A stretch of 64,000 bases of DNA from Raja brachyura (GCA_963514005.1 OY740818.1:14942001-15006000), one strand, 5' to 3'. Positions 721 through 63,179 are shown, counted from the first letter of the stretch. The notes: a model not told the origin generated them from the letters alone. Program-made: numbers and translations.

Positions 721-1374
721 CTCAAACTATCCAGGAACAAGTGTCCTCAAGTGTGAACAAAATGCATCTCCAGAGGAGGTGTTGGCACTGATTAGTGGGC
801 AACTCCCACATCAGAAGTCTGTGGATCCATATCCCACCTCAGATGTAGCTTCACCTGTAAATTAATGCATTACAAGGTGCTGACAACACCACTTCTCGAA
901 CAATTCAGAAAAAACTGCCAATGCTGGAATCTTGAGCAAAAAAATAAAGGAAATCAAATGGATAGGTAGCATCTGTGGAGGGAATAGACAAATTATGTTT
1001 CTGGCCAGGACCTTTCTTCAGCTGGCCTTGAGTAAATAAAAGTGCAATCATAAAACCCTAACCTGACCGAGTAAAGCTAAACCAGAGGATACTACTCTTT
1101 AGGGAGTAGCACCACACTGCTAAATGAGCCTTCTGTCTGGTGAGGCATCCACTCAGCTTTCTTTTGGGTGAGCCTCCGTATTCAGCCTTCTGATCGGTCC
1201 TTCGATAAGCTCGGGTCTTGTCCAGCATACCTCATTGCAGACATTGAACTTTGTGTCCAGAAGTGCTACGATACAACACCGAGATCTATATTCTGCTCCC
1301 TGGACCCTGCTCATCATTCCATATTTTGTACTTGTACTTGCCGCAAGTCCTCACCTATCACCCTATCAGCCGTC

Positions 1375-1890
1375 GCTTACAGCATATAATCCTCCAACAT
1401 TTTTGCCAACTCCAACGGGATCCCACCACTCGTCACATCTTACCATCTCCGCCCCTTTCCACAGACAGTTACCTCCGCAACTGGTGAACTTGTCCATTCC
1501 CACCCAAATCACCGCCTCCCCAGGTACCTTCCCCTGCAACCATAGGAGGTGCTACGCCTGACCCTATACCTCCTCCCTCAACTCTGTCCAGGGACCGCAA
1601 CCGTCCTTTCAGGTAAGGAAGAGTTCATTTACACCTCCTCCAACCTCATCTACTGTATTCGCTGTCCCAGGTGTGGACTCCTATATCAGTGATGCCAAGT
1701 GCAGACTGGACGATCTATGTACCTCTTCATATCTCATCTCCCTCTCCCCTGACACTCAATCTGAAGGGCCTCAACCAGAAACATCATCTATTCCTTTTCT
1801 CCAGAGATGCTGTCTGACCCTCTGAGTTACACCGGCTTTTTGTGTCTATCTTGTGTGTAAACCAGCATCTGCAGTTCCTTCCTACATGTT
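1375..1890 (+). mobile_element. Penelope-like element fragment (Zn-knuckle/GIY-YIG start plus 3' tail)
   Basis: Broken frames give HIILQHFCQLQRDPTT, GTFPCNHRRCYAC and TSSNLIYCIRCPRCGLLY, matching the copy at 22230-23386. The shared tail (degenerate hammerhead-like motif; ...CCAGCATCTGCAGTTCCTTCCTAC) follows. Confidence 0.75.
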
Positions 1891-2099
1891 TTGCCTTGGT
1901 TATATGTGTATTGCATTATCTGATTTGATTGGATAGCATGCAAGCTGTCCACTGCACTTCATTAACGGGACAATTGTGCAGTTAAATCAACTCATCTCAT
2001 CTATCAGGTGAGACGTTCACTCATCTCTTCCGTCAGATTAATTTAAAAGTTGCATTTTGAAGTGTTGATAAGCTTTCTCCTTAACCTCTGTCATTCCAC

Positions 2100-2395
2100 A
2101 AATGGATCGGGTACTTTTACCCAGAGTAGGGACATCGAGGACCAGCGGACAGAGGTTCAAGGGGAAAAGATCCGTGAGGTAACCTTTTCCACACAGAGGG
2201 TGGTGGGTGTATGGAACAAGCTGCCAGGGGAGGTAGTTGAGGCTGGGAATATCCAATCATTTAAGAAACAGTTGAACAGGTACATGGATAAGACATGTAT
2301 GGAGGGTTCTGGACGAAGCGCAGGCAAGTGGGACTAGGTGTGGGCGAGTTGGGCCGAGGGGCCTGTTGCTACACTGTATTAATCTATGACTCTAG
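2100..2395 (+). mobile_element. CR1 LINE 3' end
   Basis: ORF 2050-2337 contains FSTQRVVGVWNKLPGEVVEAG..FKKQLNRYM, the typical CR1 ORF2 C-terminus. Tail GGGCCGAGGGGCCTGTT...TCTATGACT. Confidence 0.85.
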
Positions 2396-2749
2396 TCGAT
2401 CTATGACTATAAATTAAAAAAAGAAGATAGACACAAAAAGCTGGAGTAACTCAGCAGGACAGGCAGCATCTCTGGAGAGAAGGAATGGGTGACGTTTCGG
2501 GTCGAGACCTTTCTTAGACTAGTCTGCGGAAAGTGAAACGAGAGATGATGTAGAGATAGAGAACAAAAAAAACGTAAATTGAAGGTGATCACACTCCCAT
2601 CTAATACGTCTGGATGCACTGAAATACGCTACAATATTTCATACTACAACTTCAGCAAATGAAGTGGGGCTCAACCAATGGCACATCACATGGTCAAGTG
2701 GGTTCAATCGGGAAATTATACAGCGGAGTCCAGTGTGTGTTAAGAATCG

Positions 2750-3430: not shown

Positions 3431-3473
3431 GTCTGATCCACAACCTTTCCCGTTATTAAGCCGATAAGGATGT

Positions 3474-3800
3474 GTTTTGGAAGGAACTGTGGATGCTGGT
3501 TTACACCGAAGATGGACACAAAATACCGGAGTAACTGGGTCTCGACACGAAACGTCACCTTGATTCATAGAAATTAGGTGCAGGAGTAGGCCATTCGGCC
3601 CTTCGAGCCTCTACCGCCATTCAATGTGATCATGGCTGATCATCCAACTCAGTATCCCGTACCTGCCTTCTCTCCATACCCTCTGATCCCCTTGGCCACA
3701 AGGGCCACATCTAACTCCCTCTTTAATATAGTGAATATAGTAAATGTAGATTCCTTCTCTAGAGACCCCGCTGAGTTACTCCAGCTTTTTTGTCTATCCA
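3474..3800. mobile_element. PLE-tail fold-back unit interrupted by a - strand CR1 tail (3566-3730)
   Basis: An inverted PLE tail arm (GGAAGGAACTG...GGAGTAACT) and GGGTCTCGACACGAAACGTCACC are followed by a CR1 tail nearly identical to the reverse complement of about 15940-16105. The direct arm (CCCGCTGAGTTACTCCAGC) then resumes. Confidence 0.65.
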
Positions 3801-3904
3801 AGCTGATGGGGATCCGTTTGATTTATAACAAAGACCCAGTGTTTGTGTAAGGCTCATAGTTAGAGTCCTCATTGGTGACCCTCGGACGGTCTTTGCTCGG
3901 ATAC

Positions 3905-4590
3905 AGATTCAAAATGCTGGAGTAACTCAGCGGGTCAGGCAGCATCTCTGGAGAGAAGGAATAGGTGACATTTCGGGTCGAGACCCTGCTTCAGACTCCA
4001 GTACACTAGTTATATGTCCTTCTTCAGACAGTCAGGGGAAATGGAAACGAGAGATATGGATGATGATAGGGAAAAATATAGAACAAATGAATGAAAGAAA
4101 TGCAGACAAACTTAACAATGATCAAGGAAATGGTCCGTTAGCTGCGGACTAGGTGAAAACAAGTTATACATAAAATGAAATCCATCGGGACCTCAGTGAG
4201 ACTAGTGCAATGACTAGGATGGAGGAATGATGGAGAGAGAAATAGGGGGCAGCAAGCGTTACTTGAAGTTAGAGAAATCAATACTCATGCCACAGGTAAG
4301 CTGCCGAAGCAAAATTTGTGCTCCAATTTGTGTTTGGCCTCAATCTGACAATGGAGGAGGCCCAGGGCAGAAAGGTCAGTCTGGGAAGGGGAGTTAACGT
4401 GTTTGGCAACCAGGAGATCGCGTAAGCCCATGTCGCATAGACCCAGCATAGGTGTTCAGCAAAACGATCGCCCAGTCAATGTTTGGCCTCGCCGATGTAT
4501 AAAAGTCCACACCTCGAAGAACGGAAACAGTAGATATCGGACTTACACTTGCAGACATCTGAAGAACAACCTCGCAGCATCCATACTCTC
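3905..4590 (-). mobile_element. Penelope-like element 3' fragment (GIY-YIG remnant plus tail)
   Basis: 4255-4540 is homologous to 22420-22700 and 56010-56290. Tail with hammerhead-like motif at 3963-3996. Confidence 0.7.
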
Positions 4591-5950: not shown

Positions 5951-8841
5951 GTAGGACAGCGGCCCAACACACTAACCCCCACCCCAAACCCGGCCAGGGA
6001 GAGTCCCCAACGCGACCCGCCAAAGAGGGATCCCAGATAAAAGAGAGACCTCCAAGACAGAGAGGTGGTGGGGTGGGGGTGAGAAGTAGGGACTGTAACA
6101 CAGAGGTAGACCCCAACTCATTGAGATCCGTACCCGAGCAAAGCCTTTTCTCCTCGCCTCCTCCCTTTGGACCCCAGCCCCGCAGAGAAATGAGAGAGAG
6201 AGCGGGACGACCGATAGCGAGATATCTCCTTTTAAAGATACATGCTCAGAGCCCTGCCGAGAAAGAGACCCACAAACCTAGGGAGACGAGGGAAATGCGC
6301 GTAACTGCCCCCCCAAATTGGAGGGAGGGAGGGGATTGCCAGGAAGAAAGACTCAGACCAAGAGACACCCCAGAAGTTCGCTAAACTGGGAAAGAGAACA
6401 CCCCCAGCCTTCATCTGCAAATGGTTTGTGGAGTTCGGGACACACACACAATCACCGCATTTCGACATAATTTACTGCAATTATGCTCGATTCTGTTTTC
6501 GCACCTGCCAATTACTTTAAACTTTGATCTCAAATTACTCGGGGCAAAGACCCCGAACGTGTAAAGGCGGTCGGTAAAGTCAGACTAACTTTGAACGGCG
6601 GCGTGAGCGTACCGCGGGGGGTTTTGCAGGAGCCAAACTCTTCTCAGGATTGCACATGCATCATATCGATTTACCCTGTTGCTAAGGCCCCGCGCGTGGA
6701 ATCAATATCACCCGGCTCCAATGCATCTCCAGCAGGATCCTTCAACCTGTAACACGAAGATACGCACAAGTCCAGCTGAATTATTTTCAGCAAAAACTTT
6801 GCCAAGCCCGTTAATTTGGTCAGTCTGGCTGGTAATTGGGAATATTCGCACATGATGTCGAAACTCGCTAGATCTGATTGAATCACTCCGCACGCCTGCA
6901 ACATTAACGCGGGCAGCGGCCAAAAGGTTTTGGAGGTCAGATGCCAAATAAATCCTCCATGAGATAAGAGGGGAGGAGGATACTGACATTTGCTTTCAAT
7001 TCATTTCCAAGTCCCCATTCTGGAATAATATTGGAACGATTTTTAATTGTTATTAAATATCTATACTACAAAGGTGACTATACCACAAAAGGTGTAAGTT
7101 GCACTGAGGCAAGCACAGATTCTGCAAAGCACCCTACAAATGCATTATTTCTTTTTTAACAACGTCAAGTATATCCATGTGTAGAAAGGAACTGCAGATG
7201 CTAGTTTACACCGAAGATAGACACACAAAGCTGGAGCAAATCAGCAGGTCAGATTGAAGAAGGGTCGGACCCAACACGTCCCCTATTCCTTTTCTCCAGA
7301 GATGCTGCCTGACCCGCTAAGTGTGTCTATCTTCCAAGTCTATCCATGGCGCTTTCACATAGCCAGCACAGACATAATGTTTCAAATAGCCTTCTTCTGT
7401 ACAATATAATTCTGTGATTCCAGATAACTGCTTTATTCCTTGCCCTGTTTTTAGGCCTTAGCAACTGATCAGTGATCACATACTTTGCTGGAACAGTAAT
7501 CACATTGGAAAGTGGAAACAGATGGTATAAATAATACGGGGAAAAAAGCATGTTTGTGACCTGTATGTGAGCTGAGAGTATTGGATCAGAAATATCCCAC
7601 CCAGCAAGCTGTCTCCATTGCCAACACCACAGATCTTTCAGATTTTCAGAATACTTGTATGAAAATAATTGTAAATTCAGTAATTGTTTGTTCAGAAGAT
7701 TGCAAATCTACACCAATTTAAATAAGTTGCTGATTTGAAGGGTCTCGAGACAAAACATCACCCCTTTACTTCTCACCAGAGATGCTGCTGCATTACTCCA
7801 GCATTTTGTGTCTATCTTCGGTATGTAACCAACATCTGCAGTTCCTTCCTACACAATTCTTTTTCATTGTCTGTGCGTTACCAGTGTCACATTCAGTTTA
7901 AGGCAGTGATGCGGTTGTAATGTTGATAACAGAAACGGTTCAAAATGAGCAGGTGAGCAGTCTTGCCTTTCAATTAGAATTAGAACCTGCAGAATGGATT
8001 CAGGTTAAAAATAAATCTTATCAGTTTGGAATAGGTATAGTAATGAGACCTGTGTCTAATGAGTGTAGTGAGTGCAAAAGGAAAGTGAAGGAGTGGGAAA
8101 AGCAGGCACTGGGGAACGTTTTCAGAGAAAATGTGTAAAACAGGTCTGAGCAAGGTATGTGATGCTGGATTTTGGAGAGATTAATGGTGGCATTTAAGGT
8201 TAGGATAGTGAATGTTGCAGCCAAGACATGTTTACATTGAAGTCCATATCAAACATCTATGTTATTTGAGTCCATCGAACATTTATTTGTGTCCAGAGAA
8301 ACATTATTGGAGGAAATAATAAATTGTGAAAAATGTTGAGAAGGGCAATGAGGTAAACTGGGTAGCTGAAAATTAGTTGATTGGTCAGATCCTTGGAAAT
8401 ATGAGCCTATTATGATGATGGGATGAAAGCATATTTATTTGTTTGTTCAAAAGTAAATTTCTCATAGACTTGCTCTTGTCAGGAGAGTGTTGTAGGACAA
8501 CAGAAGAGCATGGATTTAGATCTCTTCAAGATGATATGCATCATCTAATTGGTTTAAGTCAACAGAGGTTCATTGCATTCAAGCTCAATCAATGTTCAGA
8601 TACGTTGATCTTGTGAGATATCTCTGATTAAAAATGTTAAACTTTATTAAGAGTACATTACCACTAATAACGAGTGCCATTGTAAATATACAGTGTAGGA
8701 GAATGTCAGAATGTGCATTGAGTGTAATTTTGTTTACCATTTGGTGGTTTGTTATTCAATGTTATCACATGAAATTGCTGAAAATGTGAAATATGAATAT
8801 AAAGATTAAAAATCACTCAAAAATTCCCTCTGAAAAGAATC

Positions 8842-11397: not shown

Positions 11398-11461
11398 TCG
11401 CATCCAGTTAAGGAGCAGCCCCGCTAAGCCCCGAACACTGGTATTTTGATAAGCCCTTCTA

Positions 11462-19605: not shown

Positions 19606-20574
19606 CAGCAGCACTGCGTCGCTAATATTTTCAACGATTTAATAAAAAATAAATCAATCAAATAAAAGCATTTAAAATCGTCAACATATTTGTTACAAGA
19701 TAATGAATGAGGTGAAAGGATTTGGTGTATTAATAAAGCGAAAGGCTCTCTGGCCTTCCAAAGACCGAGATTGCGTGGATAAAATTAATTAATCCCTTTA
19801 CTTCTTTGAGCTGTTGCATTGTTTTATATTTATTAGTTCAGCTCCTGAATATACAGTAATGCCAAATGCTCCCTCCCCACTCTGATGTCCTATTTTTGGA
19901 TGGGGGAACGCATACTGCAATAGTGTTTATTTTTATCCAGTACCACATGCCATGGCATTCCGGAGCTCATTTCCATCCACACGCATTTTGCATGGATTGG
20001 GACAGATTACTGTCAGGGAGAAGGCCAGGAGAATGGGAATGACTGGCAACGTGCCGATGGTCACGTAACCACAATGCCAGACAAAGCTATTATGGGTAAA
20101 ATGGCGAGAGCAGGTGCAATCTTGATTTCAAGTGCTGTATATGTGCAATCAACACCAATGTCAACAGCAGTAAGATTTTGGCCAAGTCACTTAATGGACC
20201 ATAATCTAAAATATGTAGGGATGATTTAATTAAGAAACAGAGGGAGGGGTAGGCCGATAGCCTGCTCACTATTCCAAAAAGTCACGACGGCTCTGAGAAT
20301 TATTTTCAATGCAGATGGTGAAAATCTGAAACAAAATCACTGATGAGTGGTTCCCATATTCTCTGTTTTTATTTTTGGATAATCTAATATTGGTCAAAAC
20401 AACATTTTCCTGCTCTCTTTGCAAAACCTTAGCTTCCTTGCACCACACATAGCTAGAGGCAAGGAACTGCAGAAGCTGGTTTACAACAGAAAAAGTGCTG
20501 GAGTAACTCAGCGGGTCAAGCAGCATCTCTGGAAGGCATGGATATGTGACTCATCTGAAGACAGGTCTTCTTCT

Positions 20575-22020
20575 GAAGCTGATTCCCCAGCTCTAGATAC
20601 CACCACTATGGAAAACATCCAGTCAGCATTCACACTGCTAATTCTCCTCAGAATCTTGTCTGTCTCAATAAGATCAACCCTCACTCTTCGAAACTCCGAA
20701 GAGCAAAGGCCCAATCTGCAAAACCTTTCTTCATATATCAACCCTTTCATTGCAGGAATCAACAGTGAGCCATCTCTGCACTGCCAACATGTAAATATAT
20801 ATTTCCTTGACCATGAATACTGAAACCACATTAATACTCTGGTGCCCTGTAAAGATGCATCAAGAATTCCTGACCTTTGTAGTCCATACTTTGAAATAAA
20901 GGCCAATGCTCCCATTAATCTTCCTAACTACTTGCTGTCCGGCATACCAACCATTTGTGTTTCATGCACTAAGGCAACCCCTTAGCACACCATGGGAATT
21001 TGTAATCTCACTCCATTTAAATAATAATTTGCTATTTCATTCTTCCTTCTGAAATAGTCTCATATGTTCCTATGTTATTTTCCATCTGCCAGTTTGTTAC
21101 CTGCTCACTATGCAATTTCCAAGGTGTTTTGTGTCCTTATCATAACTTACATATCTTTCTAACATCGACAAACTTTAATACAATAAGATCAGTCCCTTCA
21201 CCCGTCATCAATGTTGATTGTGCAGGTTGTCCCATGGTTTTGGGCACCAAACCTAAGGATGTACACACATAATATTATTAAATTCAAACGTCCAATGTAC
21301 AGACAAGTCAATTTCCACAAACAACCCCTCTCTCCCTCTGTTTTTCATAGTTGTTTTTTAATACATCACTCTTATGGGCTTTTGATCCCTATCTCTAGAG
21401 TAGATTATTATATTGAGTGAATTTTGTGTATTTTCCAACTTATGGACTAAATCGACTAATAGATATCTGTAAAATTGGAAACCATTCATTCCCCTGAACA
21501 GCCTGTGAATATTTGAAGCCCCAGGCCTGAACACTGCCACACACCCCTCGTGACTGACTGCCAATCTGAAAATGACCCACCTCCAGAATTTATGTTTTCT
21601 ATTTATTAGCCACTCACCGACACATGTCCATATATTAACCCGCATCCCATGCCTATTTGCCCTGTTCAATGAACTTTTACATGGCACCTTATCGAATGCC
21701 TTCTGTTAATCCAAATCTACTGGCTCACCTCAATCCATTCTATTTGTTACATCCTCATTGAGTCCTAGCAGATATGTCACATATAATTACCCTTCCGTCA
21801 AACTAAATTGACTCTGATTGTTTGTCTGACATTTTTTTAACTGTCCTGTTGTTACATCTTTAATAATGAATATCATGAATAATGAAAATCATTTTCTCAA
21901 TGACAAATGTAATGTTAACTGGTCTATAATTTCCAACTTTCTGTCTCCTTTTTTGAATAGTGCCATTTTCCCTGTGATCCTTCAATCCACTGTGAATTCT
22001 CCAGTATCTATGGAGTTCTG
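20575..22020 (-). mobile_element. Decayed CR1 ORF2 (reverse transcriptase region) fragments
   Basis: LIPAMKGLIYEERFCRLGLCSSEFRRVRVDLIETDKIL, plus upstream RT motifs (DFQKAFDKVP-like at about 21680-21720; GVxQxSxLG at about 21520-21555). Confidence 0.75.
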
Positions 22021-22229
22021 CAGGGTTAACTCAGCGGGTCAGGCAACATCAACAGACTGAGGCTGTAGAAGGGTCTCGACCCGAAACAGACCCTATTTAT
22101 TTTCTTCAGAGACGCTGCCTGACCTACTGAGTTATTCCAGCATTTTGTGTCTATCTTCAATGTAAACCAGCATCTGCAGTTCCTTCCTAAACACCACGTA
22201 TCCTTGGATCCAGGCCATCGGATCCAGAG

Positions 22230-23386
22230 TGTACACAAAATGCTGGAGAAACTCAGCGAGTGCAGCAGCATCTATGGAGCGAAGGAGATAGGCAACGTTT
22301 CGGGCCGAAACCCTTCTTCAGACTGATAGGGGGTAGGGGGAGGCAGGGGGAAGAAAGGAAAAAGGAGGCGGAGGAGCCCGAGGGCTGAGGGAGAGGTGGG
22401 AAGGGGTGGAGACAGCAAGGGTTAACAGAATTGAGAGAATTCGATGTTCATGCCAAGAGGATGCAGACTTCCCAAGCAGAATATGAGGTGCTGTTTGTCC
22501 AATTTGCGGTGTTGCTCACTCTGGCCGCGGAGGAGGCCCAGGACAGAGAGGTCGGATATGGAATGGGAGGGGGAGTTGAAGTGCTGAGCCACCGGGAGGT
22601 CGGGTTGGTTATTGCGGATCAAGCGGAGGTGTTCGGCAAGCCTCCGCTTGGTCTCACCGATATAGATCAGTTGACATCTAGAGCAGAGGATGCAATAAAT
22701 CAGGTTGGAGGAGGTGCAGGTGAACCTCTGCCGGACCTGGAACAACTGCTTGGGTCCTTGAAAGGAGTGGAGGGGGGAGATAAAGCGACAAGTGTAGCAC
22801 CTCTTGCGGTTGCAAGGGAAAGTGCCCTGGGGAAGGGGTGGAGCAGGAGGGAAGGGAAGAATTGACATGCGAGTTGCGGAGGGAGCGGTCTTTGCGGAAG
22901 GCAGACGGGGGGAGATGGGAAGATGTGGCGAGTGGTGGGGTCACGTTGGAGGTGGCGAAACTGGCCTTTGGACTATGTGTTGTATGTGCCGCTGGTGGGT
23001 GAAAGGTGAGGACCAGGAGGACTCTGCCCTTGTTGCGAGTGGGGGGATGGGGAGAGAGGGCAGTGTTGCGGGGTACCGAGGAGACCCTGGTGCGAGCCAC
23101 AACTATAGAGGGGGAGGGGAATCCCCATTCTCTGAAGAATTAGGACATTTGTGATGGTCTGGTGTGAAACACCTCATCCTGGGAGCAGATGCGGCGTAGA
23201 CGGAGGAATTGGGAGTAGGGGATGGAGTCCTTACAGGAAGCAGGGTGGGAGGAAGAGTAGTCCAGGTAGCCGTGGGAGTCATTGGGTTTATAGTGGATGT
23301 CGGTCAGGAGTGTATCACCTGCGATGGAAATAGTGAGGTCAAGGAATGGTAGGGAAGTGTCGGAAATGGTCCAGGTGCATTTGAGT
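22230..23386 (-). mobile_element. 5'-truncated Penelope-like retroelement (RT C-terminus, Zn-knuckle, GIY-YIG endonuclease, hammerhead-bearing tail) with TSD
   Basis: LPFLDLTISI...YKPNDSHGYLDYSSSHP; GTFPCNRKRCYTC; NLIYCILCSRCQLIYIGETKRRL.EH...VAQHFN...GMN (GIY-YIG). Flanked by ATCGGATCCAGAG (22217-22229) and ATCAGATCCAGAG (23387-23399). Confidence 0.9.
22291..22325 (-). ncRNA. Minimal hammerhead-ribozyme-like motif in PLE tail
   Basis: - strand CAGU-CUGAAGA-A-GGGU(UUCG)GCCC-GAAAC-GUU-GCC has intact CUGANGA and GAAA cores and a stem II. Stems I and III are minimal. Confidence 0.6.
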
Positions 23387-37149: not shown

Positions 37150-38790
37150 TGTCATCTGGACAGCATTTATTGCCCATCCTTAATTGGCCTGGAGAAAGAG
37201 ATGATGAGTCACTTTCTTCATTCACTGTTATCTTTCTTATGAAGGCTGCCGAGTCCCTGATAGTATTTACCTTCTTGAATGTTGCTGGAGTTGTGTTAAT
37301 TCACCTGCCTTGCACTTTGTCAATGGTAGAAAAGTGTTGAGATGTCAGTGAGTCACCCACTGATAATACATAGTTTTGGACCTGCTTTTGTAGTCGCCAT
37401 CCTGAAATGGCTGATCCAGTTCAGTGAAGACAGAAGGAACTGCCAATACTGGTTTACAAAAAAAAAGGACACCAAGTGTGAAGAAGGCCTTGACACGAAA
37501 CATCATCTATCCATGTTCTCCAGAGTTACTCCAGCTGTCTGACCCACTGAGTTACTCCAGCACTTATTTTTTGTCTTTTTTTTTGGTCCAGTTTATTTCC
37601 TGACCAATACTGACCACCAGAAAGTAGATGACATGGAACTCAGATATAGTAATTCTATTGAATATCAAGAATTTGTTAAACACTCTCTTGCTGGAGATGA
37701 CCATTACCTGGCACTTCTGTGGTACAAATGTTACCTGCTACTTATTAGCTCATGCTAAATGTTATCCAGCTGTGTTTCAAGCATGGAGGCATAGACTGGT
37801 CGGCTTATTTGCTGAGGAGTTATGAATGGTATTAAACATCCTGCGTTTTCTTGTAATGGAAGGGTGGTCACTGATGGAGCTGCTGAAAATGGCTGGGTCT
37901 TGGACTCTCTTCTCAGGAACTTCAGCAGTACTCTCCTGGGGCTGAGATGATTGACCCCAAACAGTCACAACTATCTTGTGTGGCGCAAAGCATGACATTG
38001 ACCATCGAAGTGTCCCCCCCCCCCCCTGCAGCCCATTGATTTTAGTTTTACAAAGCTTTTTGATGCCACACGTGCCTCATGATGACATAGCAGTCACTCT
38101 CATTGCAATGTGAAATCAGTTCCTTGGGACAAAGTCTGCCATGGAGCCCAGCAATCCTGGTGAATGTGAGGCAGGAGGTAAATGGATAGTATATACCATT
38201 GGCTAGCACTGTCGGCACCTTCCATCGCTTTAGAACAAGCACCGGTCGTGAAATTTCATGTAAATATATCATGTCAGAGATAGGTCATTTCCGGAGGAGG
38301 AGTATATGACTCCGCAAAGCTATTCCGCTATCTAAATGCAATTCAGAAGCATAATGTCATAATCTTTACCTGCCTAGAGTGGTTCAGTGCCACGAATTTT
38401 GAAGGCGCTCAACACTATCCAGGAAAAAACAGGTCATCATTCCTTCCACCACCCTAAGGATTCACACCCTTCAATAACAAGTGCATCATTGCTGCAAACT
38501 GTGGTCCATTGGCAAGAATCCTTTGGAAGCATCTCCTAAACCAGAAAGTCCACCATTGGAAAGTCAAAGATAGCAGATGACTGTGAACAGAACCACTTCC
38601 AACCTGTTTAAATGTTAAGTGTTAATCCTGTTAAGTGATATTGCATGAAGCTTTGCTGGGACAGAACAGTGAAAAAGCACAGTGGAAGTACCTTCAACAT
38701 ATAGATTTCAGTGGTGTATAAATAAGGCAGCTCAGGGGTAATTTGAGATCGGTATTTAATGTGGGTCTTATCTGTGATGCTTATATCTGG
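37150..38790. mobile_element. Cluster of old CR1/L2-like LINE remnants with a PLE fold-back unit at about 37430-37575
   Basis: Decayed tail (CAGCATTTATTGCCCATCCTTAATTG) and RT-like segments on both strands, with no intact ORF. Confidence 0.5.
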
Positions 38791-39807
38791 GGAATGAAAA
38801 TAAAAACATACTTGCTCATTGTATTTTTCACAAAGTCACGGTGAGGTCTAGTTGCTTCTTGGAAGAAGCAGAACTATAGGCAGGGGGTATTTTCACTGAG
38901 GAATTCAGTCCCCACCTCTAAGGTATAAAAAACGTTATCCTTTTCGACTTCAGATCGATTTATCCTGTTGCAGTTTTATCTTCCTGCCACTGATGTACTG
39001 CGGTGTCCCCAGTGGTGAAATGTGGAATAACAGACCGATGATGTTCTAATCAGCAAGCTCCTTTCTAATAAAAGTAACTTGTAATTTAAATTGGGGAAGT
39101 TCACAGGCCACTCATGGAGACGGGAGATTGTGAATCTGGAAAATATATTTGTAAACGCCCTGCCTCTGGCATCCTTCCATCAGACTTACGTTCACATACC
39201 TCAGAGCACCACATGAGCAGATTCCACAGGTTCTCAGGCTGAGAACCTGTGCACCCTTTACACCACAAGGTGATCAATCCTCAATAGGTAGTTTGCCCCT
39301 TTACATCAATTCACCAGCACAGTCCCTAACCTGTGCCTTAGAAGGAACAGAGGTACAAGAGACTATAGATGCTGGAATCTGCAGCAAAAAACAAATTGCT
39401 GGAGGAATTCATCGGGGTGGGCAGCATCTGTAGAAATAAGTGAATTGTCGATATTTTGGGTCAAGATCCTCCATCAGGATTGAGAGTCTCAATTGCTTTC
39501 CCTTCACAGAAACGTCAACCATTCCCTTCTCTCCACAGATACTGCTCAACCCGTTGAGTCTCTCCAGCAGTTTCTGTGCTTGAGGCCACACAGTCGATGT
39601 GCTTCTGATCTCGTCTGAGCTTTAGTGCACAATCTGGCCAGAGCAGCAGGGTTTTTAATCTTACATCTTGGGCACTATCTTTGCTCAGCTACTCAAAGAC
39701 ACTTAGGGCAATCAGCTTTCCATTTATTTGCCAATCCTACTCAGCCTCTGTGTGGAGATCATTTAATGCAGCTGGCATCATTGATTCGCCTGGTCTGCAT
39801 GCATTTC

Positions 39808-40150: not shown

Positions 40151-41433
40151 GATCACAGAATGCAGATACACTGTTGAGTTTCTCAGGGTTTCGAGGCGGT
40201 CTTTTAGTTTTCAAAGAGTGTGTTAAAGCATTTCATTATGAAGATTACGTCAGTAGTGTGATAAAACTTTGCCCATGAGTTGCTGAAATAAATATTTTGT
40301 GTATAAATGCCAGCAATTTAAATAATTAATCCTTGTGTTGCTAAACACAGGGTGATGGAGAATTAAGTAATTCCTGTTTACAATGTGTCATCTATTACAG
40401 TATACCCTCCTGGTTCAGGTATGGGTTGTGTTAGTAATGACATTGTCAGCTCATACCTCAGTATCAATGCAGCTTCTGAGGAAGGCAGCCATCAAAGATT
40501 TGGGTCCTTTGCCATTGGGATAACACATAGTTCATTGAGATGACCTTGTGAAATATAATCCCATTTTAATTTGGGATATACTGCAGCCACTTTGTGCTCA
40601 TCAAGGGATCACCAACATAATAACCAGGGTATTCCACGTAAGTGAAATAGAAAACGCTAGAGTTCTGATGAATTGTCTCCAACCTGAAATATTAACTCTG
40701 TTTCTCTCTCTTCAGATACTGCCTGACCTGCTGAGTATCTCCGACATTTTCTGTTTACTTTTAAATTTATTCAGCATTTTGAGTTTCTATTTTGTTTTTT
40801 TACTGGCATTATTTGGGTGATCAATATTGCCCTGGGCACCAGGGAGAATGCCATGTCCCTTTTTCTATGACCACCTGAGAGGGAGAAGGTTTATGACCTA
40901 ATCTGAAATTCAGTCTAGTTTTAGAGCTTTGTTTTGGGGTGGTATTTGTACCCAGAATCTGACTCGGAGAGCACCAACTCACTGAGAGTTAATGTCAGGC
41001 AGCAGAATTGGAGGAATCTCCACGCTGTCTTACAACATTACTTTGTTCCCCTCTGATGGTAATTCTCCTTAAAGGCAGAAGATTCAATCCTCGACACTCC
41101 TTTTTTCCACTGTCCTGGACCGAGATACTGTCCAACACTTCACAAACTTAGATTACAACAAGCATTTTGTTTAAAACAGATCTGATTACTTTCATCACTT
41201 CTCAGTTAATGTCTTCCATATCACTTTCCATTTGTGATTAAAACCAGTGTAGCATAACATGAAGAATATCTGAGGGATTGTTGTTGTTTTGAACAAGGCT
41301 GATTAAGGAAAATACCCTTTGGTGCTGTGGGATTATTTTGTTACACTTGGAATCTAGGATGTGTAATTCTCTTGTGTTCACAGTAATGTTTCAGAAGCTT
41401 GTTAGTTTATTCCTTTGTGTTCTGACATTGCAG

Positions 41434-50283: not shown

Positions 50284-50290
50284 GATAGTG

Positions 50291-51450: not shown

Positions 51451-52109
51451 ACAAGTGGTCTGCTGCCCGGACCTGTGAATGGCCACCCTACAGAAGGTTA
51501 TATCAACTGCCTGAAGAAGGGTCCAGACCGAAAAATCGTCTGTTCATTTCCCTCCACAGATGCTGCCTGACCTGCTGAGTTCCTCCACAGTCCGTTTTTG
51601 TGCTCAAGATTCCAGTATCTGCATTATCCAGTGTCTCCTTTGACCAACCTGCCCTCCTCAGACACTATGGGAGCTCCTCAGAGATCCTCTCCTTTATGGG
51701 AGCATGGAGCTGAAGTGCGACCAAAAGTTGAAGAGTAGCCTTTTCAAATACATAAACTGGGGCTGAAACTTTTCATTTTCTATGTAAACACAGACACAAA
51801 CTCCTCCAGACTACAAAATTATTTGAGGGGTTGGGTGTCCATAACCAAATTAAAACCCCCTGTAGAGCATTGCTCTGTGCAATTCTCTCCATCCCAAGTC
51901 TGTAAAGGGAGAGGGCACCCATGGAGGGAGACCTTCACTGGGGATCCGCCTTGCTACCAAATTTCAAAACAGTCTGAAGGGGCATGTCCAGATTGCATAT
52001 AAGAGTAACGAATTGGAGAGTATGCAGGAGTAACCTGCACAGGAAATGCTTCCATGTTGTGTGGAAGAGCACAGTAGTCAATTCTAAGGGAAAGCTCATA
52101 TTCATAGAT

Positions 52110-52960: not shown

Positions 52961-53479
52961 ACCACACATAACCTTCTCCAAAGCTGTACTAAAGTCCAGT
53001 TAGACGTTGCCAGCTGCCTTGCCCTCATGAATCCTCTGTTACCTCCTCAAAAAACGCAATCAATTTTGTGAGATATGGTTTGCTCACAAAGAAAGCCATG
53101 TTGACTATCACTAATCAGTTCTTGCCTTTGCAAATGCAGATAAATCTTGTCTCTCAGAATCCCTTGCAATAACTTACCCACCACTGATGTTCACCTAAGG
53201 TAGTCTGAAGAAGAGTCTCGACCCGAAACATCACCCATTCCTTCTTTTCAGAGATGCTGCCTGACCCGCTAAGTTGCTCCAGCAGTTTGTCTCGACCTTC
53301 TTGGTTCTTGGTTACTTGGTCCTCCAAAATATTCCAATTGGAATTTAAACTGGAGGTAGTGAAGGGAGGGGTTAAGCCAGAGAGGGTTATTGGGAAGAAA
53401 GTGCCACTTTAAATTTAGTTGCATCTGGCTAGGCAACCGTGGCTTGAAACCACCATACAGCCATACAGTAAAAAATAAA

Positions 53480-55510: not shown

Positions 55511-55782
55511 CTGTTACAGAGCGACATAACAAATAAACTAGGGTAAGCCATTTGGCTATGTTATGTGCTATGTTCCTCAGTCCTCTGTACCATATTCCTC
55601 AATCAATCTTTGATTCCTTTAATATCCAAAATCCAACCTTCACTGTTTTGGACAGATATTGAATGACTGAGCTTTTAGGTAGAGAATTACACACTCCAGA
55701 TGAAAGAAAATGTCTTCCCATGTAAGTCCTGAATGCCTAATAAATATAATCGATATATTAAAACATCAACTCTTCGTTCTTG

Positions 55783-56554
55783 TTTAAAAAGGAACTCCAG
55801 ATGCTGGAAAATTCAAAGGTGCTGGAGAAACTCAGCGGGTGAGGCAGCATTTATGGAGCGAAGGAATGGATGACGTTTCGGGTCGAGACCCTTCTTCAGA
55901 CTGATGTGGGAGTGGTAGGGGCGGGAAGAAGAAAGGAAGAGGCAGAGACAGTGGGCTGTGGGAGAGCTGGGAAGGGGAGGGGAAAGAGGAAGAAAGCAAT
56001 AACTACCTGAAATTGGAGAAGTCAATGTTCATATCGCTGGGGTGTAAACTGCCCAAGCGAAATATGAGATCCTGCTCCTCCAATTTACGGTGGGACTCAC
56101 TCTGGCCATGGAGGAGGCCCAGGGCAGAAAGGTCGGATTCAGAATGGGAGAGGGAGTTGAAGTGCTGAGCCACCGGGAGATCAGGTTAGTTATTGCGAAC
56201 TGAGCGGAGGTGTTGGGTAAAGCGATCGCCAAGCCTAAGCTTGGTCTCACTGATGTAGAGCAGCTGACACCTAGAACAGCGGATGCAATATAAGAGGTTG
56301 GAGGAGGTGCAGGTGAACCTCTGCCGCACCTGGAAATACTGCTTAGGTCCTTGGATAGAGTCAAGGGGGGAGGTAAAGCGACAAGTCTAGCATTTCCTGC
56401 GGTTGCAAGGGAAAGTACCAGGGGAGGGGGTGGTTTGGGTGGGAAGGGCCGAATTGGCCAGAGAGTTACGGAGGGAGGGGTCTCTGCTGAAAGCCGAAAG
56501 GGGAGGAGATGGAAGATGTGGCCAGTGGTGGGATCCCGTTGGAGGTGGCAAACA
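55783..56554 (-). mobile_element. 5'-truncated Penelope-like element (GIY-YIG plus tail) with probable TSD
   Basis: Homologous to 22230-22960 (PGTFPCNRRKC; FTCTSSNL.YCIRCSRCQLLYI.ETK..LGDRF..H). Flanks CTTCGTTCTTG (55772-55782) and CTTAGTTCTTG (56555-56565). Inserted in an old CR1. Confidence 0.88.
55868..55903 (-). ncRNA. Minimal hammerhead-ribozyme-like motif in PLE tail
   Basis: - strand CAGU-CUGAAGA-A-GGGU(CUCG)ACCC-GAAAC-GUC-AUCC, with intact cores and a canonical GUC triplet. Confidence 0.6.
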
Positions 56555-57429
56555 CTTAGTTCTTGATGTCCCAGTCTGGGGAAACATTATTCATGCAACC
56601 CCAAATAATTTTGTGTCTTTCAATGCAATTATCTCTTGTGTTTTGAAATATGAGACAATAAAAGATTTTTTTAAAGATATAAATTGCTGGAGTAACTTAG
56701 TGGGTCAAGCAGCATCCGTGGAGAACATGGATAGGTAACGTTTAGGGTCAGGACCCTTCTTCAGACACATTGTGCTTGTGTGCATCACGGATGTGTGTGT
56801 GTGTGTGTATGTGGGGGGGGGGGGGGAGAGGGAGGGGGAGAGAAAGTTAAAAGGGAGAAAGGGCAAGACAAAGCATGACAGGCAATAGGTGAACACAGGC
56901 TAGGGCATTTTTGATAGGCGGATGGTTCGTCAAACGTAAGAGATAAGAAATTGTTGTGAGACGAGAAGACTGAGCAATTGCAATAGTGAATCCAGAGGAA
57001 GGAATCAAGGTGCACTGTCGGTGGAGGGGAAGTGCAGATATTGGTACACGTCCAGGTGGGGCATGGAGTAGGGGGAGCAGTGAAATATGGTCTCACTGAC
57101 CTCCTGCCAGAGAAAGGAGGAGAACCTATTTAAAGTAGGCATATCTTGAGATGATTTATTTATTTATTTCCTTAATCAGTAGTAGATCATTCCTTGGGCA
57201 AAGAAACCAGACGAGTAACGTTATTCCAGGTGAGATCTCACCAGTACCAAATGTAATTTGTAGTAAGACCTCTGGTACTCAACTCATATTACAATGAAGA
57301 CCAATATACCATTTGCCTCATTTCATCTTATTTTACCTTTAATTTTACAATTACTACTGCAATTCACAGGAGGCTATTTTATTAAATTAGGAAATGATAG
57401 TAGTTAAGTTGATCATTTGTAAACCCTTT

Positions 57430-58290
57430 TGCCCTGCACAAATTACCTCCCCTGAAATACACCTGGCCCCACTTAGTCTCTATCCCAACCAAACTACATC
57501 CTGACCCACTTAAGTTACCTCTGCCAGAATTACACCCCATCTCGTTTAAAGCTGGCTGATCTTTATCTGAAATGTACTTACTTTACCTGAATTTATACTT
57601 CACCTGAATAACCCCGCAAATTTACTCACACTCACCCCACCACACTTGAACTACAATGTACTGGCCGGATTTGAATTACATCTCATCCAAATGACATCCT
57701 GCCTTCATTACACCTGCTTCACTTGAATTACATAATATTCAAACTGGTCGGCATCCCATATGAATCATACCAACCCAAACCATATCTATCTTAAACTGTA
57801 CCTCATCTAAAACACACCCAATTGTACTTGAACTACACCTGCCCGAACCATAGCTCAACCCATTTGAAGTACACTTTGTCCAAACTACATCCTGCCCCAT
57901 TTAATAAAACCTGTCCAAAGTATATCCCATTCCATTAAAACAGTGCACTTCCCAATCTACGTCCCAACTCATTTGAACTACACCATGCTCAACTTGAAAT
58001 AGGCCCTGCCCAGGGTCTCGACACAAAATGTCACCTATTACTTTTCTCCAGAGATGTTGCCTGACCCGCTGAGTTACTCAAGCATTTGTGTCTGTCATCT
58101 GTCCAAACTTTATCCTAACTCACTTGAACCATACCTTCCCAAAGAACCATACCTTACCAAAGTTCCCGGCCAGGCTCTGCCCAATTTACAATCTGCTTGA
58201 TTTACACTCATCCAAATTAAATCCCTCATGATTTAACATTTGTTTGATTTATACCTCTCTTGACACCAGGTTTACACTTGCCTAATTTAT
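57430..58290 (+). repeat. Degenerate minisatellite (about 36-bp unit)
   Basis: Recurring ACTTGAACTACACC / CCAAACTACATCCTGCCC motifs, interrupted by a PLE tail at about 58010-58095. Confidence 0.6.
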
Positions 58291-59705: not shown

Positions 59706-59729
59706 TCAATGATGCACATGCGAGAAAAA

Positions 59730-60417: not shown

Positions 60418-60826
60418 GTAGGTCCAGGACATGAGAATCTCTCCATACACATCGAGGATCACAGCCCTCCCTATAAAGATACCAAGCTCTTCCAAAAAAA
60501 GCTGAAGCGGTTACTCGGATTACAGGGTCATTTATCTTGGTGCTTGTATGTATCCGCAGCTGATTTGCAATGCGGTAAACTGTGAAATGGCGTTTCTGCC
60601 TAATGCCGGCATTTCTATCATTAGTTGTGGTTGATATTAAATAGCTGGCCTTTTTTGTTTGTTTGTGAGGAGTTTTGCAGGCTGAGTCTTATTAATAAAC
60701 ACCCAATTTCCCCCTAGATTTAAAAAAAAATCAGTCACTGATTGATTGACACCCCGACAATGAAACATTGAATATTTCTGGAGGTGCTGGAGAAACTCAG
60801 CGGGTGCGGCAGCATCTATGGAAACA

Positions 60827-60859
60827 GGCAACGTTTCGGGCCGAAACCCTTCTTCAGAT
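60827..60859 (-). ncRNA. Minimal hammerhead-ribozyme-like motif in an isolated PLE tail (60783-60859)
   Basis: - strand CUGAAGA-A-GGGU(UUCG)GCCC-GAAAC-GUU-GCC, core identical to 22291-22325. Confidence 0.55.
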
Positions 60860-61174
60860 ATCCTTTTAATCTGGATATCCTTTTAATCCGAGCCTCCTGC
60901 AAACTTTGATTAAAAAAACCCGTGCAGAGCCAGAGATCTCCCCTCTCCTCTCAGGAGCACACGTCAGTCCTTCGAGCTGGCGAATGCAAACAGCTGAAGA
61001 TATGTGTGATTTAAGGAGTGCGATGTCTGTAATATTTGCCGCGCTGGCCTGTAATTCCAGCCTCCAAGTCGAGAGGAATTGGCGAGCGCGCAGTTCAATA
61101 AATACCCAGCGCCAAAGGTGGGTCTCGCTGCCGCCGATAATTCTTTCACTATTTTAAACAATTTTCTGTAACAG

Positions 61175-61344
61175 CCGGGGCCGAGATTAACCTCGGGAAG
61201 AAGATCAGCATCCCTCGGGATGTGATGTTGGAGGAACTGTCCCTGATGAAGAATAAAGGGTCGCAGATGTTTAAAGAGCGGCAGCGCAGGGTCGAGAGGT
61301 TCATCTATGAGTCACATCCCGACGTCTTTCACCCAGATTCGATG
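61175..61344 (+). CDS. MYOZ1: Myozenin-1 second coding exon (gene continues beyond the window)
   Basis: Acceptor TTTTCTGTAACAG|; (A)GAEINLGKKISIPRDVMLEELSLMKNKGSQMFKERQRRVERFIYESHPDVFHPDSM, a calsarcin-family signature. Donor ATG|GTAGGC. Confidence 0.94.
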
Positions 61345-63179
61345 GTAGGCATTTTTTCCTTCAGGATGTTACCAGTTAAAACCCAAGCTCTAATGCTGCC
61401 TCAGAACAAATCTTGGAAACAACACGTTCCCACATATCCTTCCCACTCATGCTCCCTCTCCATTTCTCCTTGTGTATTTTCTACTGGCTGATAGTGAACA
61501 TCTGCCATTTGAGATAAAGGGAATCCCAATACAAGATGTGGTCATTTATATGCTGGTGTGGAGTAGCCCCAGGATGTCATCACATCTCCAGCCTTGTCCC
61601 AATGATATATACACCTTCATCTTCAGGATCACAATCCAGGTGAAGGATCTTAATCTGAAACATCGACCGGCCATTTCCCTCCACAGATGGTGATGGATCC
61701 AATGACTTCCACCTGCGAATTGTTTGTTGCTCCTGATTCAAGCACCTACACCCTCTTGTGTGTCAGCATCCTCCGGTACTAGGTATGCTAACTTGAACAT
61801 TGATGTTCAAGTGGCTTCACCCTAACCACATCATGCACTGTTGGGACTAATCCAAAGCAGCATCCCTGAGAGAGAAATTATCTCTCACTTTCAACCTCAG
61901 ATGTTAAGGTCCTTCTCAATTGATTGTCCCCTGGCCATTCTAACCACACCTCTGACAAGAAGGATGAGGTCCCACTTATACCAAGATGGACACCTACTTT
62001 CAGTCTACCCTTTCCATTTCCCAACCACATAAGGCATGATTTAAGGATTCCACCCAATCCTGTGATCACACCGCATTGATAGTTCCATTTCCCCCATGAA
62101 CCAAGCTCCTATCGTTCATAAAGCCAATCTTCTGCACCCTTACTCCATTCTCACTATACATCTATATCAACTTCTCTTCCAGATACCCATGTGTGTTATG
62201 GTAAGTGGTCTCACCTCCCCTTCATAACCAACATGATCACCTTTAAACTGCAAAAATTGGCATTTCTCCCAATTAACTGTTTAACAATACTGCCCAATCT
62301 TTGCATACTGTTTTAGGGTAATACATTTTTATTATATGTCCTCCAAAAAGGTGTATTTACCTGCATTTCGTGGTGAAAAATCAAGGAAATATTTTCCCCA
62401 TAATATAAAGAAATGATTATATTTGTCAATTAGATTGAAATTTCTGTAGACTGGTTGATATTCAGAGCCGTCTCTTCTTGAGATGAAGAAGACATGGAAT
62501 AAAATGAAAATAACATCAAAATAAGAAATCCCCTCATCCAGAGAATGGATTTTGTCCTCTAGGGATATTTAACTTGTTAATAGTTTAAAACGAGGTTTGG
62601 ACAGATTAATAAAATATTTTAAAATAAAGTGCACTTTAGCTAGTGTGGCCCAACCCAAATATTACAGAGTAGAAACTATTGATGAACATGGTTAAAAAAA
62701 AGAAACCTGAAACTACAGTAACAAGAGGAATGGGAAGAATAGGATAGCCATTGGAAATAGCGACCAAATAGTGAACCTATCATTATAATGTGGACTCTGT
62801 GTACACAAAGCAATTATAACACTATCTGCAGTGAGAGAGACATCTTCCAAGGCATACTGAATGACTTCATATTGAATTGACTCCTTAGACTTTGTAGCAC
62901 CTGACAGCCTCTGTATGGCATACTTCACTCCTGATGTTAAGCCATGTTGAATGTTTTGCAAGCATACTTTACACAATGCCAACTTGTATCACAATTTCAA
63001 ACATGCCAGATCTGCTCACCATTTAATTTAATCCATCTGACTGACATTCAGCCTCATTTTCACCCATATCCAATTTGTATTATTTTCACTTTCTTTTCTC
63101 TTGAAGTTGATGCATAAATTAATTTTATCACCATATTGGGTTTGGTCTAAATTAACATTTATAGAATTTTAATCCAAGA

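What the first reader, a model, noticed from the sequence alone, without database searches (positions are those of the whole stretch)
990..61675. Dispersed family of ultra-minimal hammerhead-like ribozymes carried by Penelope tails
Seen: about 20 copies of the motif CTGAAGA-A-GGGTnnnn(A/G)CCC-GAAAC-GT(C/T) or decayed versions. Approximate positions are 990, 1761, 2487, 3537, 3963, 7254, 7735, 22063, 22291, 29795, 29955, 37480, 39447, 51511, 53203, 55868, 56733, 58012, 60827 and 61642. Stem II is kept while its loop varies (CUCG, UUCG, CCUG) and U-A swaps with U-G. In four cases the motif lies 3' of GIY-YIG coding remnants on the same strand. Known: PLEs carry minimal type I hammerheads in their terminal repeats, with palindromic stem III regions proposed to act as dimers. 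Inference: here stem III is reduced to the loop-less palindrome ACGU/AACGUU, which can pair only between two copies, and stem I is about 2 bp. This is either an obligate-dimer ribozyme at the lower size limit, or a catalytically dead fold kept as an RT recognition signal. At about one copy per 3 kb it would be a very abundant ribozyme-like motif in this genome.
Basis: partly seen in the sequence, partly recalled or inferred. Interest (0 to 1): 0.75.

Follow-up and report, generated by a model that had tools for sequence, protein, structure and literature searches.

The report
Skate Penelope retrotransposon minimal hammerhead remnants
The repeated motif is the stripped-down self-cutting RNA that Penelope-type jumping genes are already known to carry, left behind here as mostly broken end-fragments in what appears to be a skate genome, so it is a new example of a known thing rather than a new kind of ribozyme.

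Summary
Observation confirmed. All 20 stated positions fall on hits of a 95-135 nt repeat; it has 22 motif-bearing loci (31 profile hits; 0-1 in shuffles). All 4 GIY-YIG remnants carry a same-strand copy 3' of them. The host is a skate or close relative. The loop-less helix III, the extra base after A9, the dimer model and high copy number were all published for Penelope-like elements (PLEs) in 2014, with monomer and dimer assays. Only 3 of 22 loci keep the full core, stem II and palindrome, and only 2 also keep stem I. Short copies begin at the ribozyme's 5' edge, not at its cut site. They end at two sites about 35-40 nt apart, far 3' of the cut. So they were copied from uncleaved RNA by internal priming, as shown for the anole PLE. 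An RT-recognition role for the fold is not supported. Modestly new: the lineage, a 2-bp covarying stem I that the published descriptor misses, and the sharp 5' boundary at an initiator-like motif. New member of a known kind; interest 0.27.

The parts
55870..55901 (-). Complete minimal hammerhead motif (subfamily B): 2-bp stem I, CUGAAGA, unpaired A, 4-bp stem II with CUCG loop, GAAA, ACGU palindrome, C17; predicted cut between 55872 and 55871
55780..55869 (-). Tail of the same copy, long form, with the AUGCUG/CAGCAU hairpin
55902..56002 (-). Pyrimidine-rich 3' UTR (about 80% C+T) ending in an initiator-like / splice-acceptor-like TCAG just before the motif
56003..56552 (-). PLE endonuclease remnant (C-x4-C-x2-C linker, GIY-YIG, CCHH) with two in-frame stops
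22292..22323 (-). Complete motif (subfamily B): UUCG loop, U.G pair in stem II and at 2.1-1.1, U17; predicted cut between 22294 and 22293
22232..22291 (-). Tail, short form
22422..23385 (-). 5'-truncated PLE: end of the RT region plus endonuclease, broken by a stop and a frameshift; lies in SYNPO2L intron 1, antisense
60775..60858 (-). Short solo copy with complete core, stem II and palindrome but only 1 stem I pair; starts one base before C3
1338..1887 (+). PLE endonuclease remnant (to 1714), shortened UTR, decayed motif at 1761, long tail
3890..4556 (-). PLE endonuclease remnant (4264-4556), about 230-nt UTR, duplicated motif start at 4027, near-complete motif at 3994, short tail
2418..2580 (-). 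Copy with about 65 nt of UTR, decayed motif at 2517, short tail
3476..3800 (.). Head-to-head pair: inverted long-tail arm 3476-3536(-) joined to a copy starting in stem II at 3537(+), which is split by an unrelated insertion at about 3561-3750
7183..7350 (.). Head-to-head pair: inverted long-tail arm (-) and decayed short copy at 7254(+)
7735..7856 (+). Decayed solo copy, long tail
20452..20576 (-). Copy whose stem II region is replaced by what reads as an inverted copy of its own 5' end
   Evidence: read from sequence
22027..22194 (.). Decayed copy at 22063(+), long tail, preceded by a short inverted tail fragment
29796..30057 (+). Decayed subfamily E copy (29797), then decayed copy 29953 with a tandem partial repeat at 29999
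37437..37577 (.). Head-to-head pair: inverted long-tail arm (-) and decayed short copy at 37478(+)
39355..39580 (.). Head-to-head pair: subfamily D copy 39477(-), long, with C-G/U-A stem I, and short arm 39507(+)
40658..40785 (+). Subfamily E copy: core 11/11, AUAU palindrome, 7-bp stem I, stem II broken
913..1025 (-). Decayed subfamily D solo copy
51507..51626 (+). Decayed subfamily D solo copy
53201..53300 (+). Solo copy, core 11/11, one stem II mismatch, palindrome lost at its CpG
56670..56768 (-). Subfamily C solo copy, CCUG loop, G12 mutated
58012..58100 (+). Decayed solo copy starting just before stem II
61632..61760 (+). Decayed subfamily D solo copy

Best explanation
These are the terminal units of several subfamilies of an endonuclease-bearing Penelope-like retrotransposon of the Neptune/Nematis type in a skate genome. 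SHOWN: each unit is a minimal type I hammerhead motif followed by a 55-105 nt structured tail; longer copies run back through a pyrimidine-rich UTR into the GIY-YIG frame; nearly all copies are decayed. INFERRED from anatomy plus the anole PLE work: the element's protein starts reverse transcription inside the RNA at one of two sites in the tail (about +90 and +130 from C3), on RNA that the ribozyme has not cut. It often primes from both nicked DNA strands, which gives the head-to-head pairs with one long and one short arm. Most products are short and stop at the ribozyme's 5' edge, possibly because the transcript begins there. INFERRED from selection on the core and stem I and from published assays of relatives: in the active element the motif is a real but conditional ribozyme. 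It cuts after GUC/GUU only when two copies pair through the 4-bp palindrome and both short stem I helices, most likely with help from the element's protein, and it serves to process or turn over tandem transcripts rather than to drive insertion. The dispersed solo copies have no partner and are most likely inert.
For: PLE link: the frame at 22422-22940(-) matches RT plus GIY-YIG proteins, best hits from Rhinoraja and Rhincodon, E 1e-50 and 1e-45; 4 of 4 remnants carry a sense motif. Uncleaved templates: 21 of 22 loci run on to a 3' end at about +80 or later, 11 at +109 to +131 and 10 at +80 to about +96-105. Two start sites and an optional 30-40 nt tail are described in PMC11167929 and PMC8557442. 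In 4 of 5 head-to-head pairs one arm is long and the other short. 17 of 26 fragments lacking UTR start within about -3..+8 of C3; identity among the 17 loci is at background upstream (0.26 at -30..-6, against 0.56 at 0..+13). Selection: subfamily majorities are invariant at 10 of 11 core and 7 of 8 stem II positions against 21 of 36 unpaired tail positions (p=0.016). Pair 2.1-1.1 is U-A in A and C, U.G in B and C-G in D. Named structure 84.4% paired against 77.7% shuffled (2/500). Both stem I pairs are kept in 10 of 14 loci with letters there. Published: monomer inactive, dimer weak; cleavage needs the PLE protein and is dispensable for insertion.
Against: No cleavage or RNA data here. Core against the whole tail is not significant (p=0.11; 0.056 with stem II added). 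The paired/unpaired split of the tail was chosen after seeing the data, and subfamilies hold only 3-9 hand-assigned copies. No both-sided change in stem II; RNAalifold on the 20-row alignment predicted no pairs; tail stems show no both-sided change. The active double-hammerhead fold scores 19-28 kcal/mol above the homodimer minimum, and in longer context the core strand is predicted to pair elsewhere (no positive control run). Subfamilies D/E mostly lack the palindrome. No full-length or tandem element is in the window, so the dimer partner and pLTR layout are not seen. The test of 5' clustering used a crude uniform null and hand-read start positions.
Confidence: 0.72

Rival explanations
1. 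The 95-135 nt unit is a separate non-autonomous element (SINE-like, or retrozyme monomers) with its own transcript, mobilised in trans by the PLE protein, rather than a by-product of the full-length RNA.
For: 17 of 22 motif loci lack UTR and start at nearly the same point. An initiator-like motif sits at that point in 4 of 5 UTR-bearing copies. Non-LTR retrozymes are reported to derive from PLE terminal repeats and to leave dispersed monomers.
Against: Solo copies fall in the same subfamilies as endonuclease-bearing copies and share their diagnostic bases. No head-to-tail array of intact units is present; the closest same-strand spacing, 156 nt, is between decayed copies of different subfamilies. 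Monomers cut from a ribozyme-processed array would start at +28, which is not where the peak lies.
Confidence: 0.17
2. One reading: the fold is catalytically dead and is kept as the recognition signal for the reverse transcriptase.
For: Stem I is only 2 bp with weak pairs, and the active fold is strongly disfavoured in the energy model. Copies come from uncleaved RNA. Cleavage is dispensable in vitro for the anole PLE, and no RNA-seq ends were found at its cut site.
Against: All catalytic positions and the NUH triplet are kept in the majorities of subfamilies A and B, and C wherever a majority exists, which protein binding alone would not require. Start sites lie 55-105 nt downstream next to another hairpin. 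In the anole PLE the minimal template starts at +20 of the ORF, 3' of C3 and G8, and core mutants insert normally, while the wild type does cleave with protein.
Confidence: 0.08
3. Individual genomic copies are host-used ribozymes that act on SYNPO2L or myozenin pre-mRNA.
For: 10 loci lie in SYNPO2L introns, 7 of them sense.
Against: None of the 7 sense intronic copies is complete; all 3 complete ones are antisense to both genes; no intact same-strand neighbour is close.
Confidence: 0.02
4. The hammerhead resemblance is chance in an ordinary repeat.
For: No Rfam hammerhead model matched at E up to 1.
Against: Exact fit to the published PLE consensus including the extra base after A9 and the G10.1-C11.1 pair; expected position 3' of the endonuclease; relaxed descriptor gives 2-3 hits against 0.00-0.07 in shuffles.
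Confidence: 0.01

Closest known systems
Minimal hammerheads (min-HHR) of metazoan PLEs, Cervera and de la Pena 2014, PMC4209133 (e.g. Acropora Neptune, Nematostella, Culex, Xenopus tropicalis, Latimeria families)
   Same: CUGANGA, one unpaired base, G10.1-C11.1 stem II, GAAA, two-base palindrome with no loop, NUH; located in the terminal repeat 3' of RT-EN; mostly dispersed single copies from truncated PLEs. The 28-nt core span equals that of the Acropora, Nematostella(2) and C. remanei rows.
   Different: Stem I is 2 bp with U-A or U.G next to the core and usually an A.C mismatch third; the 2-bp rows I read there are all G-C pairs. Total 32 nt against 34 nt for the smallest rows (my count). 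It falls under their descriptor's 3-bp minimum. No cartilaginous fish is among the rows I read.
Small PLE-associated hammerhead variants that cleave as dimers, Lunse, Weinberg and Breaker 2017 (PMC5785218)
   Same: By its title and the summary in PMC6765202: PLE-linked, very short palindromic stem III, dimer cleavage.
   Different: Paper not held, so whether it covers sharks or skates or 2-bp stem I variants is unchecked.
PAc, Poseidon PLE of Anolis carolinensis, Frangione et al. 2024, PMC11167929
   Same: Motif at the repeat junction; two internal RT start regions separated by the tail, in an AC-rich stretch about 85-92 nt 3' of the cut; both DNA strands primed; unprocessed RNA is the template. 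Long ends here also finish in AC-rich bases.
   Different: PAc is Poseidon clade and its ORF starts in stem II. The skate element has the cysteine linker of Neptune/Nematis, and its ORF start is not in the window.
Non-LTR retrozymes (bioRxiv 10.64898/2026.07.22.740005; PMC7229834 listing only)
   Same: Short non-coding PLE-derived units with a type I hammerhead, reported in one unnamed chondrichthyan genome.
   Different: Defined as tandem arrays (mean unit 363 bp in that genome); here the units are dispersed 95-135 nt monomers or inverted pairs.

Membership tests
PLE minimal type I hammerhead (min-HHR) | Core CUGANGA ... GAAA and NUH cleavage triplet | tested here: met
   Complete with stem II and palindrome in 3 of 22 loci; subfamily majorities invariant at 10 of 11 core positions, the exception being G12 at a CpG in D
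PLE minimal type I hammerhead (min-HHR) | One unpaired base between A9 and 10.1 | tested here: met
   A in 20 of 20 loci with a letter there; feature
PLE minimal type I hammerhead (min-HHR) | Stem II of 3-7 bp opened by G10.1-C11.1 | tested here: met
   4 bp; G in 17 of 21 and C in 15 of 21; 82% of cells paired but no both-sided change
PLE minimal type I hammerhead (min-HHR) | Helix III reduced to a loop-less palindrome (15.2-16.2) | tested here: met
   CG in 3 of 3 B copies; A copies CG 3, CA 4, TG 2, as CpG decay would give. D/E are mostly CA, a form also listed for a Latimeria family
PLE minimal type I hammerhead (min-HHR) | Helix I closing the core (2 bp or more among published members) | tested here: met
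   2 bp in 10 of 14 assessable loci with subfamily covariation; 7 bp in one copy; 2-bp published rows
Published RNAmotif min-HHR descriptor (a search tool, not the family) | Stem I of at least 3 bp | tested here: not met
   My re-implementation: 0 hits at 3 bp or more, 2 at 2 or more, 3 at 1 or more
PLE minimal type I hammerhead (min-HHR) | Sits in the terminal repeat, sense, 3' of the RT-EN frame | tested here: met
   4 of 4 endonuclease remnants
PLE minimal type I hammerhead (min-HHR) | Self-cleavage as dimer or with protein | not testable with these tools
   Energy model only
Endonuclease-bearing PLE, Neptune/Nematis type | RT followed by C-terminal GIY-YIG endonuclease | tested here: met
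   22428-23385(-) aligns to residues 128-450 of P0002, which has RVT_1 and GIY-YIG matches; the RT core itself is not in the window
Endonuclease-bearing PLE, Neptune/Nematis type | CX2-5CXXC linker and CCHH motif | tested here: met
   Read from the translations; definition
Endonuclease-bearing PLE, Neptune/Nematis type | Optional 30-40 nt tail and inverted 5'-truncated arm | tested here: met
   Two 3' end classes and 5 head-to-head pairs; definition
Endonuclease-bearing PLE, Neptune/Nematis type | Partial-tandem layout forming pseudo-LTRs | tested here: inconclusive
   No full-length or tandem element in the window
Neptune versus Nematis clade | Placement in an RT phylogeny | not tested
   No reference set and no RT core in the window
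Non-LTR retrozyme | Tandem array with at least two consecutive complete motifs | tested here: not met
   Same-strand spacings and completeness; definition
Rfam hammerhead families | Match to the covariance model | tested here: not met
   No hammerhead hit at E up to 1; 2 chance miRNA hits

The most novel reading that the evidence does not exclude
The skate PLE transcript starts at an initiator three bases before the catalytic core. The RNA would then begin with the ribozyme, stem I could not exceed 2-3 bp, and the 5' and 3' copies of one transcript would be each other's dimer partners, joining the RNA end to end. Internal priming within the 5' repeat would run off the RNA end and give the abundant 95-135 nt solo copies, much like strong-stop DNA. 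The RT start signal would be the tail's AUGCUG strand pairing with either of two CAGCAU arms, which would explain the optional PLE tail as a duplicated stem arm. If this window is typical (2 complete motifs per 64 kb; 95% interval 4-113 per Mb), a skate genome would hold thousands to over 100,000 complete motifs that the published descriptor cannot see.
Probability: 0.25. Interest if true: 0.55.

Novelty: new member of a known kind. Interest (0 to 1): 0.27.

Why it matters
The ribozyme type is known, so its presence changes little. Two side results could be useful to PLE specialists. First, censuses that require a 3-bp stem I would miss these families, so ribozyme counts in cartilaginous fish may be much too low. 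Second, the many short copies record where reverse transcription starts and stops in vivo. That gives a genome-scale test of the internal-priming, uncleaved-template model shown in vitro for one lizard element, now in a second PLE clade, and bears on the open question of what PLE hammerheads are for.

Tried and rejected
A fuzzy edit-distance scan timed out with no output and was replaced by nhmmer. Rfam gave no hammerhead match. Pfam did not recognise the window's endonuclease frames at E 0.01; one matched GIY-YIG at E 0.038. RNAalifold on the full 20-row alignment gave no pairs. The lower within-subfamily mismatch rate of the core (8 of 160 against 114 of 987, p=0.012) I do not count as evidence: the alignment trims mismatched 5' ends and hidden subfamilies inflate the tail figure. 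In one search two rows (37477, 61637) were set in the wrong register and were disregarded for stem I. A splice-acceptor reading of the UTR end (YAG in 3 of 5 UTR-bearing copies; Drosophila precedent) could not be told from the initiator reading; no shared upstream exon was found among solo copies. The AACGUU six-base palindrome was rejected as the active helix III because A14 and U17 are core and cut-site positions (recalled hammerhead numbering). The conserved ATG at +49 was considered as a start codon and set aside: the subfamily A frame closes after about 17 codons and subfamily changes fall on first and second codon positions (read by eye). A weak UTR match for 56764 was rejected as a C-run. 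R-scape was not available.


Full report
Setting. The long frame at 41406-44309(+) is SYNPO2L, 93% identical to Rhinoraja longicauda and 83% to Pristis. Coding exons map to 5846-5962, 31820-31999, 32754-33668 and 41430-44306. A calsarcin/myozenin exon lies in 61141-61491(+). The window is therefore from a skate or close relative (inference).

Observation. A strict CTGANGA...GAAA search finds 13 sites, 6 of them in this family. A profile built from 13 copies finds 31 hits at E<0.05, against 0 in the reversed window and 0-1 in 10 shuffles. The hits make 22 motif-bearing loci and 9 other fragments, together about 2.9 kb or 4.6% of the window by hand-set boundaries. The repeat is not just the motif: it is the motif plus a shared tail, 95-135 nt in all, which I sorted by eye into five subfamilies (A 9, B 3, C 3, D 5, E 2). 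Three loci keep core 11/11, stem II 4/4 and the palindrome (22321-, 55899-, 60857-); two of these keep both stem I pairs. Much of the decay is at CpG sites, including G12 and the palindrome itself.

Link to PLEs. The frame at 22422-22940(-) retrieves 6 longer proteins of 452 candidates, led by skate and whale-shark sequences with RT and GIY-YIG domains. tblastn maps four remnants, and each has a same-strand motif 3' of it. The two best-kept remnants show the CX2-5CXXC linker and CCHH motif that mark Neptune and Nematis elements (PMC8557442). All are truncated and broken; no active element is in the window.

Is the ribozyme fold under selection? Subfamily majorities are invariant at 10 of 11 core positions, 7 of 8 stem II positions, 17 of 20 paired tail positions and 21 of 36 unpaired tail positions. 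Core plus stem II against unpaired tail gives p=0.016, against the whole tail p=0.056, and core alone against the whole tail p=0.11. The named structure is 84.4% paired in 13 copies, against 77.7% in shuffles (2/500) and 8-49% in slid controls; related sequences can pass these controls without structure. Stem II has one one-sided change and no both-sided change in that alignment. The better evidence is in stem I: pair 2.1-1.1 is U-A in A and C, U.G in B and C-G in D, and pair 2.2-1.2 is G-C in A, B and C and U-A in copy 39477. The third position is usually A.C. One E copy (40665+) has 7 pairs in register; 0.03% of window positions would pair that well with its 3' strand. Subfamilies D and E have A at 16.2 in 7 of 7 copies, so their ancestor was probably not palindromic there. 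Selection on the fold is thus likely but not shown strongly from one window.

Could it cut? In the energy model the active double hammerhead scores -2.9, -7.1 and -0.3 kcal/mol for the three complete copies, against homodimer minima of -21.7, -28.3 and -28.8. The 2.1-1.1 pair has probability near 0 in monomers. The model ignores tertiary contacts and I ran no positive control, so this says only that unaided cleavage is unlikely. That fits published results: min-HHR monomers inactive and dimers weak (PMC4209133), and the anole motif cleaving only with the PLE protein (PMC11167929).

What the ends record. Of 22 loci, 11 end at +109 to +131 from C3 and 10 at about +80 to +96-105; one is cut short by a tandem repeat. 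The cut site is at +27/+28, so the templates were not cleaved there. The two classes match the optional 30-40 nt PLE tail and the two RT start regions of the anole element. Five loci have an inverted arm at their 5' side; in 4 of 5 one arm is long and the other short, as priming from both nicked strands would give (inference). Each end class lies about 10-25 nt 3' of a CAGCAU arm that can pair with the same AUGCUG strand (no both-sided change). At the 5' side, 5 of 22 loci extend into the UTR; the other 17 start within about -3..+8 of C3 (one perhaps at -11), with background identity upstream. Nine further fragments start at +14 to +81. In A/B/C solo copies, G at -2 (5 of 7, p=0.006) and T at -1 (5 of 7, p=0.02) are kept and C at -4 is not (1 of 7). 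An initiator-like YYANWYY (consensus recalled) with its A at -3 is present in 4 of 5 UTR-bearing copies, but most of it is forced by the core, and YYA alone occurs at 7% of positions. A transcription start there is a hypothesis, not a result.

Host effect. Ten loci lie in SYNPO2L introns, 7 sense and 3 antisense. None of the sense ones is complete, and all 3 complete loci in the window are on the strand opposite both genes; three is too few to call a bias.

Comparison with what is known. PMC4209133 defines the min-HHR precisely by the absence of helix III and loop 3, notes the extra base after A9, and lists many CGUC and CGUU families, 2-bp helix I members and thousands of dispersed single copies per genome. 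The skate motif meets every sequence feature of that family that I could test. It differs in the weak 2-bp stem I and fails the paper's search descriptor, which needs 3 bp. It is not a tandem retrozyme and matches no Rfam model. It works like, and is filed as, a PLE min-HHR; catalysis is untested.

Literature seen. PMC4209133: parts 1-2 of 4 of the text and the whole supplementary PDF as extracted text. PMC11167929: passages and the second half of the main text. PMC8557442, PMC6765202, PMC2377424, PMC10085705, PMC6155905: passages. bioRxiv 10.64898/2026.07.22.740005: first fifth and passages; its supplementary tables were not seen and may list the chondrichthyan families. Lunse et al. 2017: title and a review's summary only. 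Searches listed no paper describing this motif in skates or sharks (judged from the listings shown); repeat databases could not be searched, so absence from print is not established.

Verdict. Real feature, known kind, new lineage, mostly dead copies. Interest 0.27; the most novel open reading (transcript starting at the ribozyme, run-off short copies, large hidden census) has probability about 0.25 and would merit 0.55.

Noticed in passing
window 41406-44309(+), with exons 5846-5962, 31820-31999, 32754-33668: SYNPO2L gene; the last exon carries a long proline-rich tandem repeat (about 42380-42700) that breaks the alignment to relatives.
   Followed up: partly
window 61141-61491(+): Calsarcin/myozenin exon (Pfam E 1.7e-28), probably MYOZ1 by its recalled neighbourhood to SYNPO2L.
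   Followed up: no
window 40658-40700(+): Copy with full core, AUAU palindrome and 7-bp stem I but broken stem II; suggests an older subfamily with a conventional long helix I.
   Followed up: partly
window 55895-55903(-), 22317-22325(-): UCAG-U-CUGA across the 5' edge of the core is self-complementary; in two-strand folds it forms an alternative, inactive dimer that buries C3-A6.
   Followed up: partly
window 22322-22420(-), 55900-56002(-): The UTR is a polypyrimidine tract ending in CAG one base before U2.1, like a 3' splice site; in Drosophila Penelope an intron ends at helix I.
   Followed up: partly
window 3566-3730 and 15940-16104: A 165-nt segment 96% identical between two sites, in opposite orientation; one copy is inserted into the motif copy at 3537. 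Looks like a young SINE or LINE end.
   Followed up: no
window 2121-2394, 13416-13809, 16118-16452, 52348-52841 (similar frames at 15413-16021, 20508-20927): Several related fragments, 65-76% alike, whose translations resemble the C-terminus of CR1/L2-type LINE proteins (recalled resemblance).
   Followed up: no
window 11869-12833(-): Tc1/mariner-like transposase remnant (weak Sleeping Beauty HTH match, E 0.001).
   Followed up: no
window 26388-26900(+): 170-aa frame resembling the C-terminal region of an L1/Tx1-type ORF2 (recalled resemblance; no Pfam hit).
   Followed up: no
window 22194-22232: Copies 22063(+) and 22321(-) meet tail to tail across about 40 nt that contain a short inverted repeat.
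   Followed up: no
window 3995-4030(-): The first 11 bases of the motif are duplicated 33 nt upstream of the full copy, with a short unrelated spacer.
   Followed up: partly
window 20551-20576(-): The stem II region is replaced by 16 bases that read as an inverted copy of the motif's own 5' end, as a template switch would give.
   Followed up: partly
3' junctions, e.g. window 1887, 2420, 7856, 37578, 56674: Several copies run into A/T-rich flanks, in line with the AT-rich target preference reported for the anole element; not quantified.
   Followed up: no
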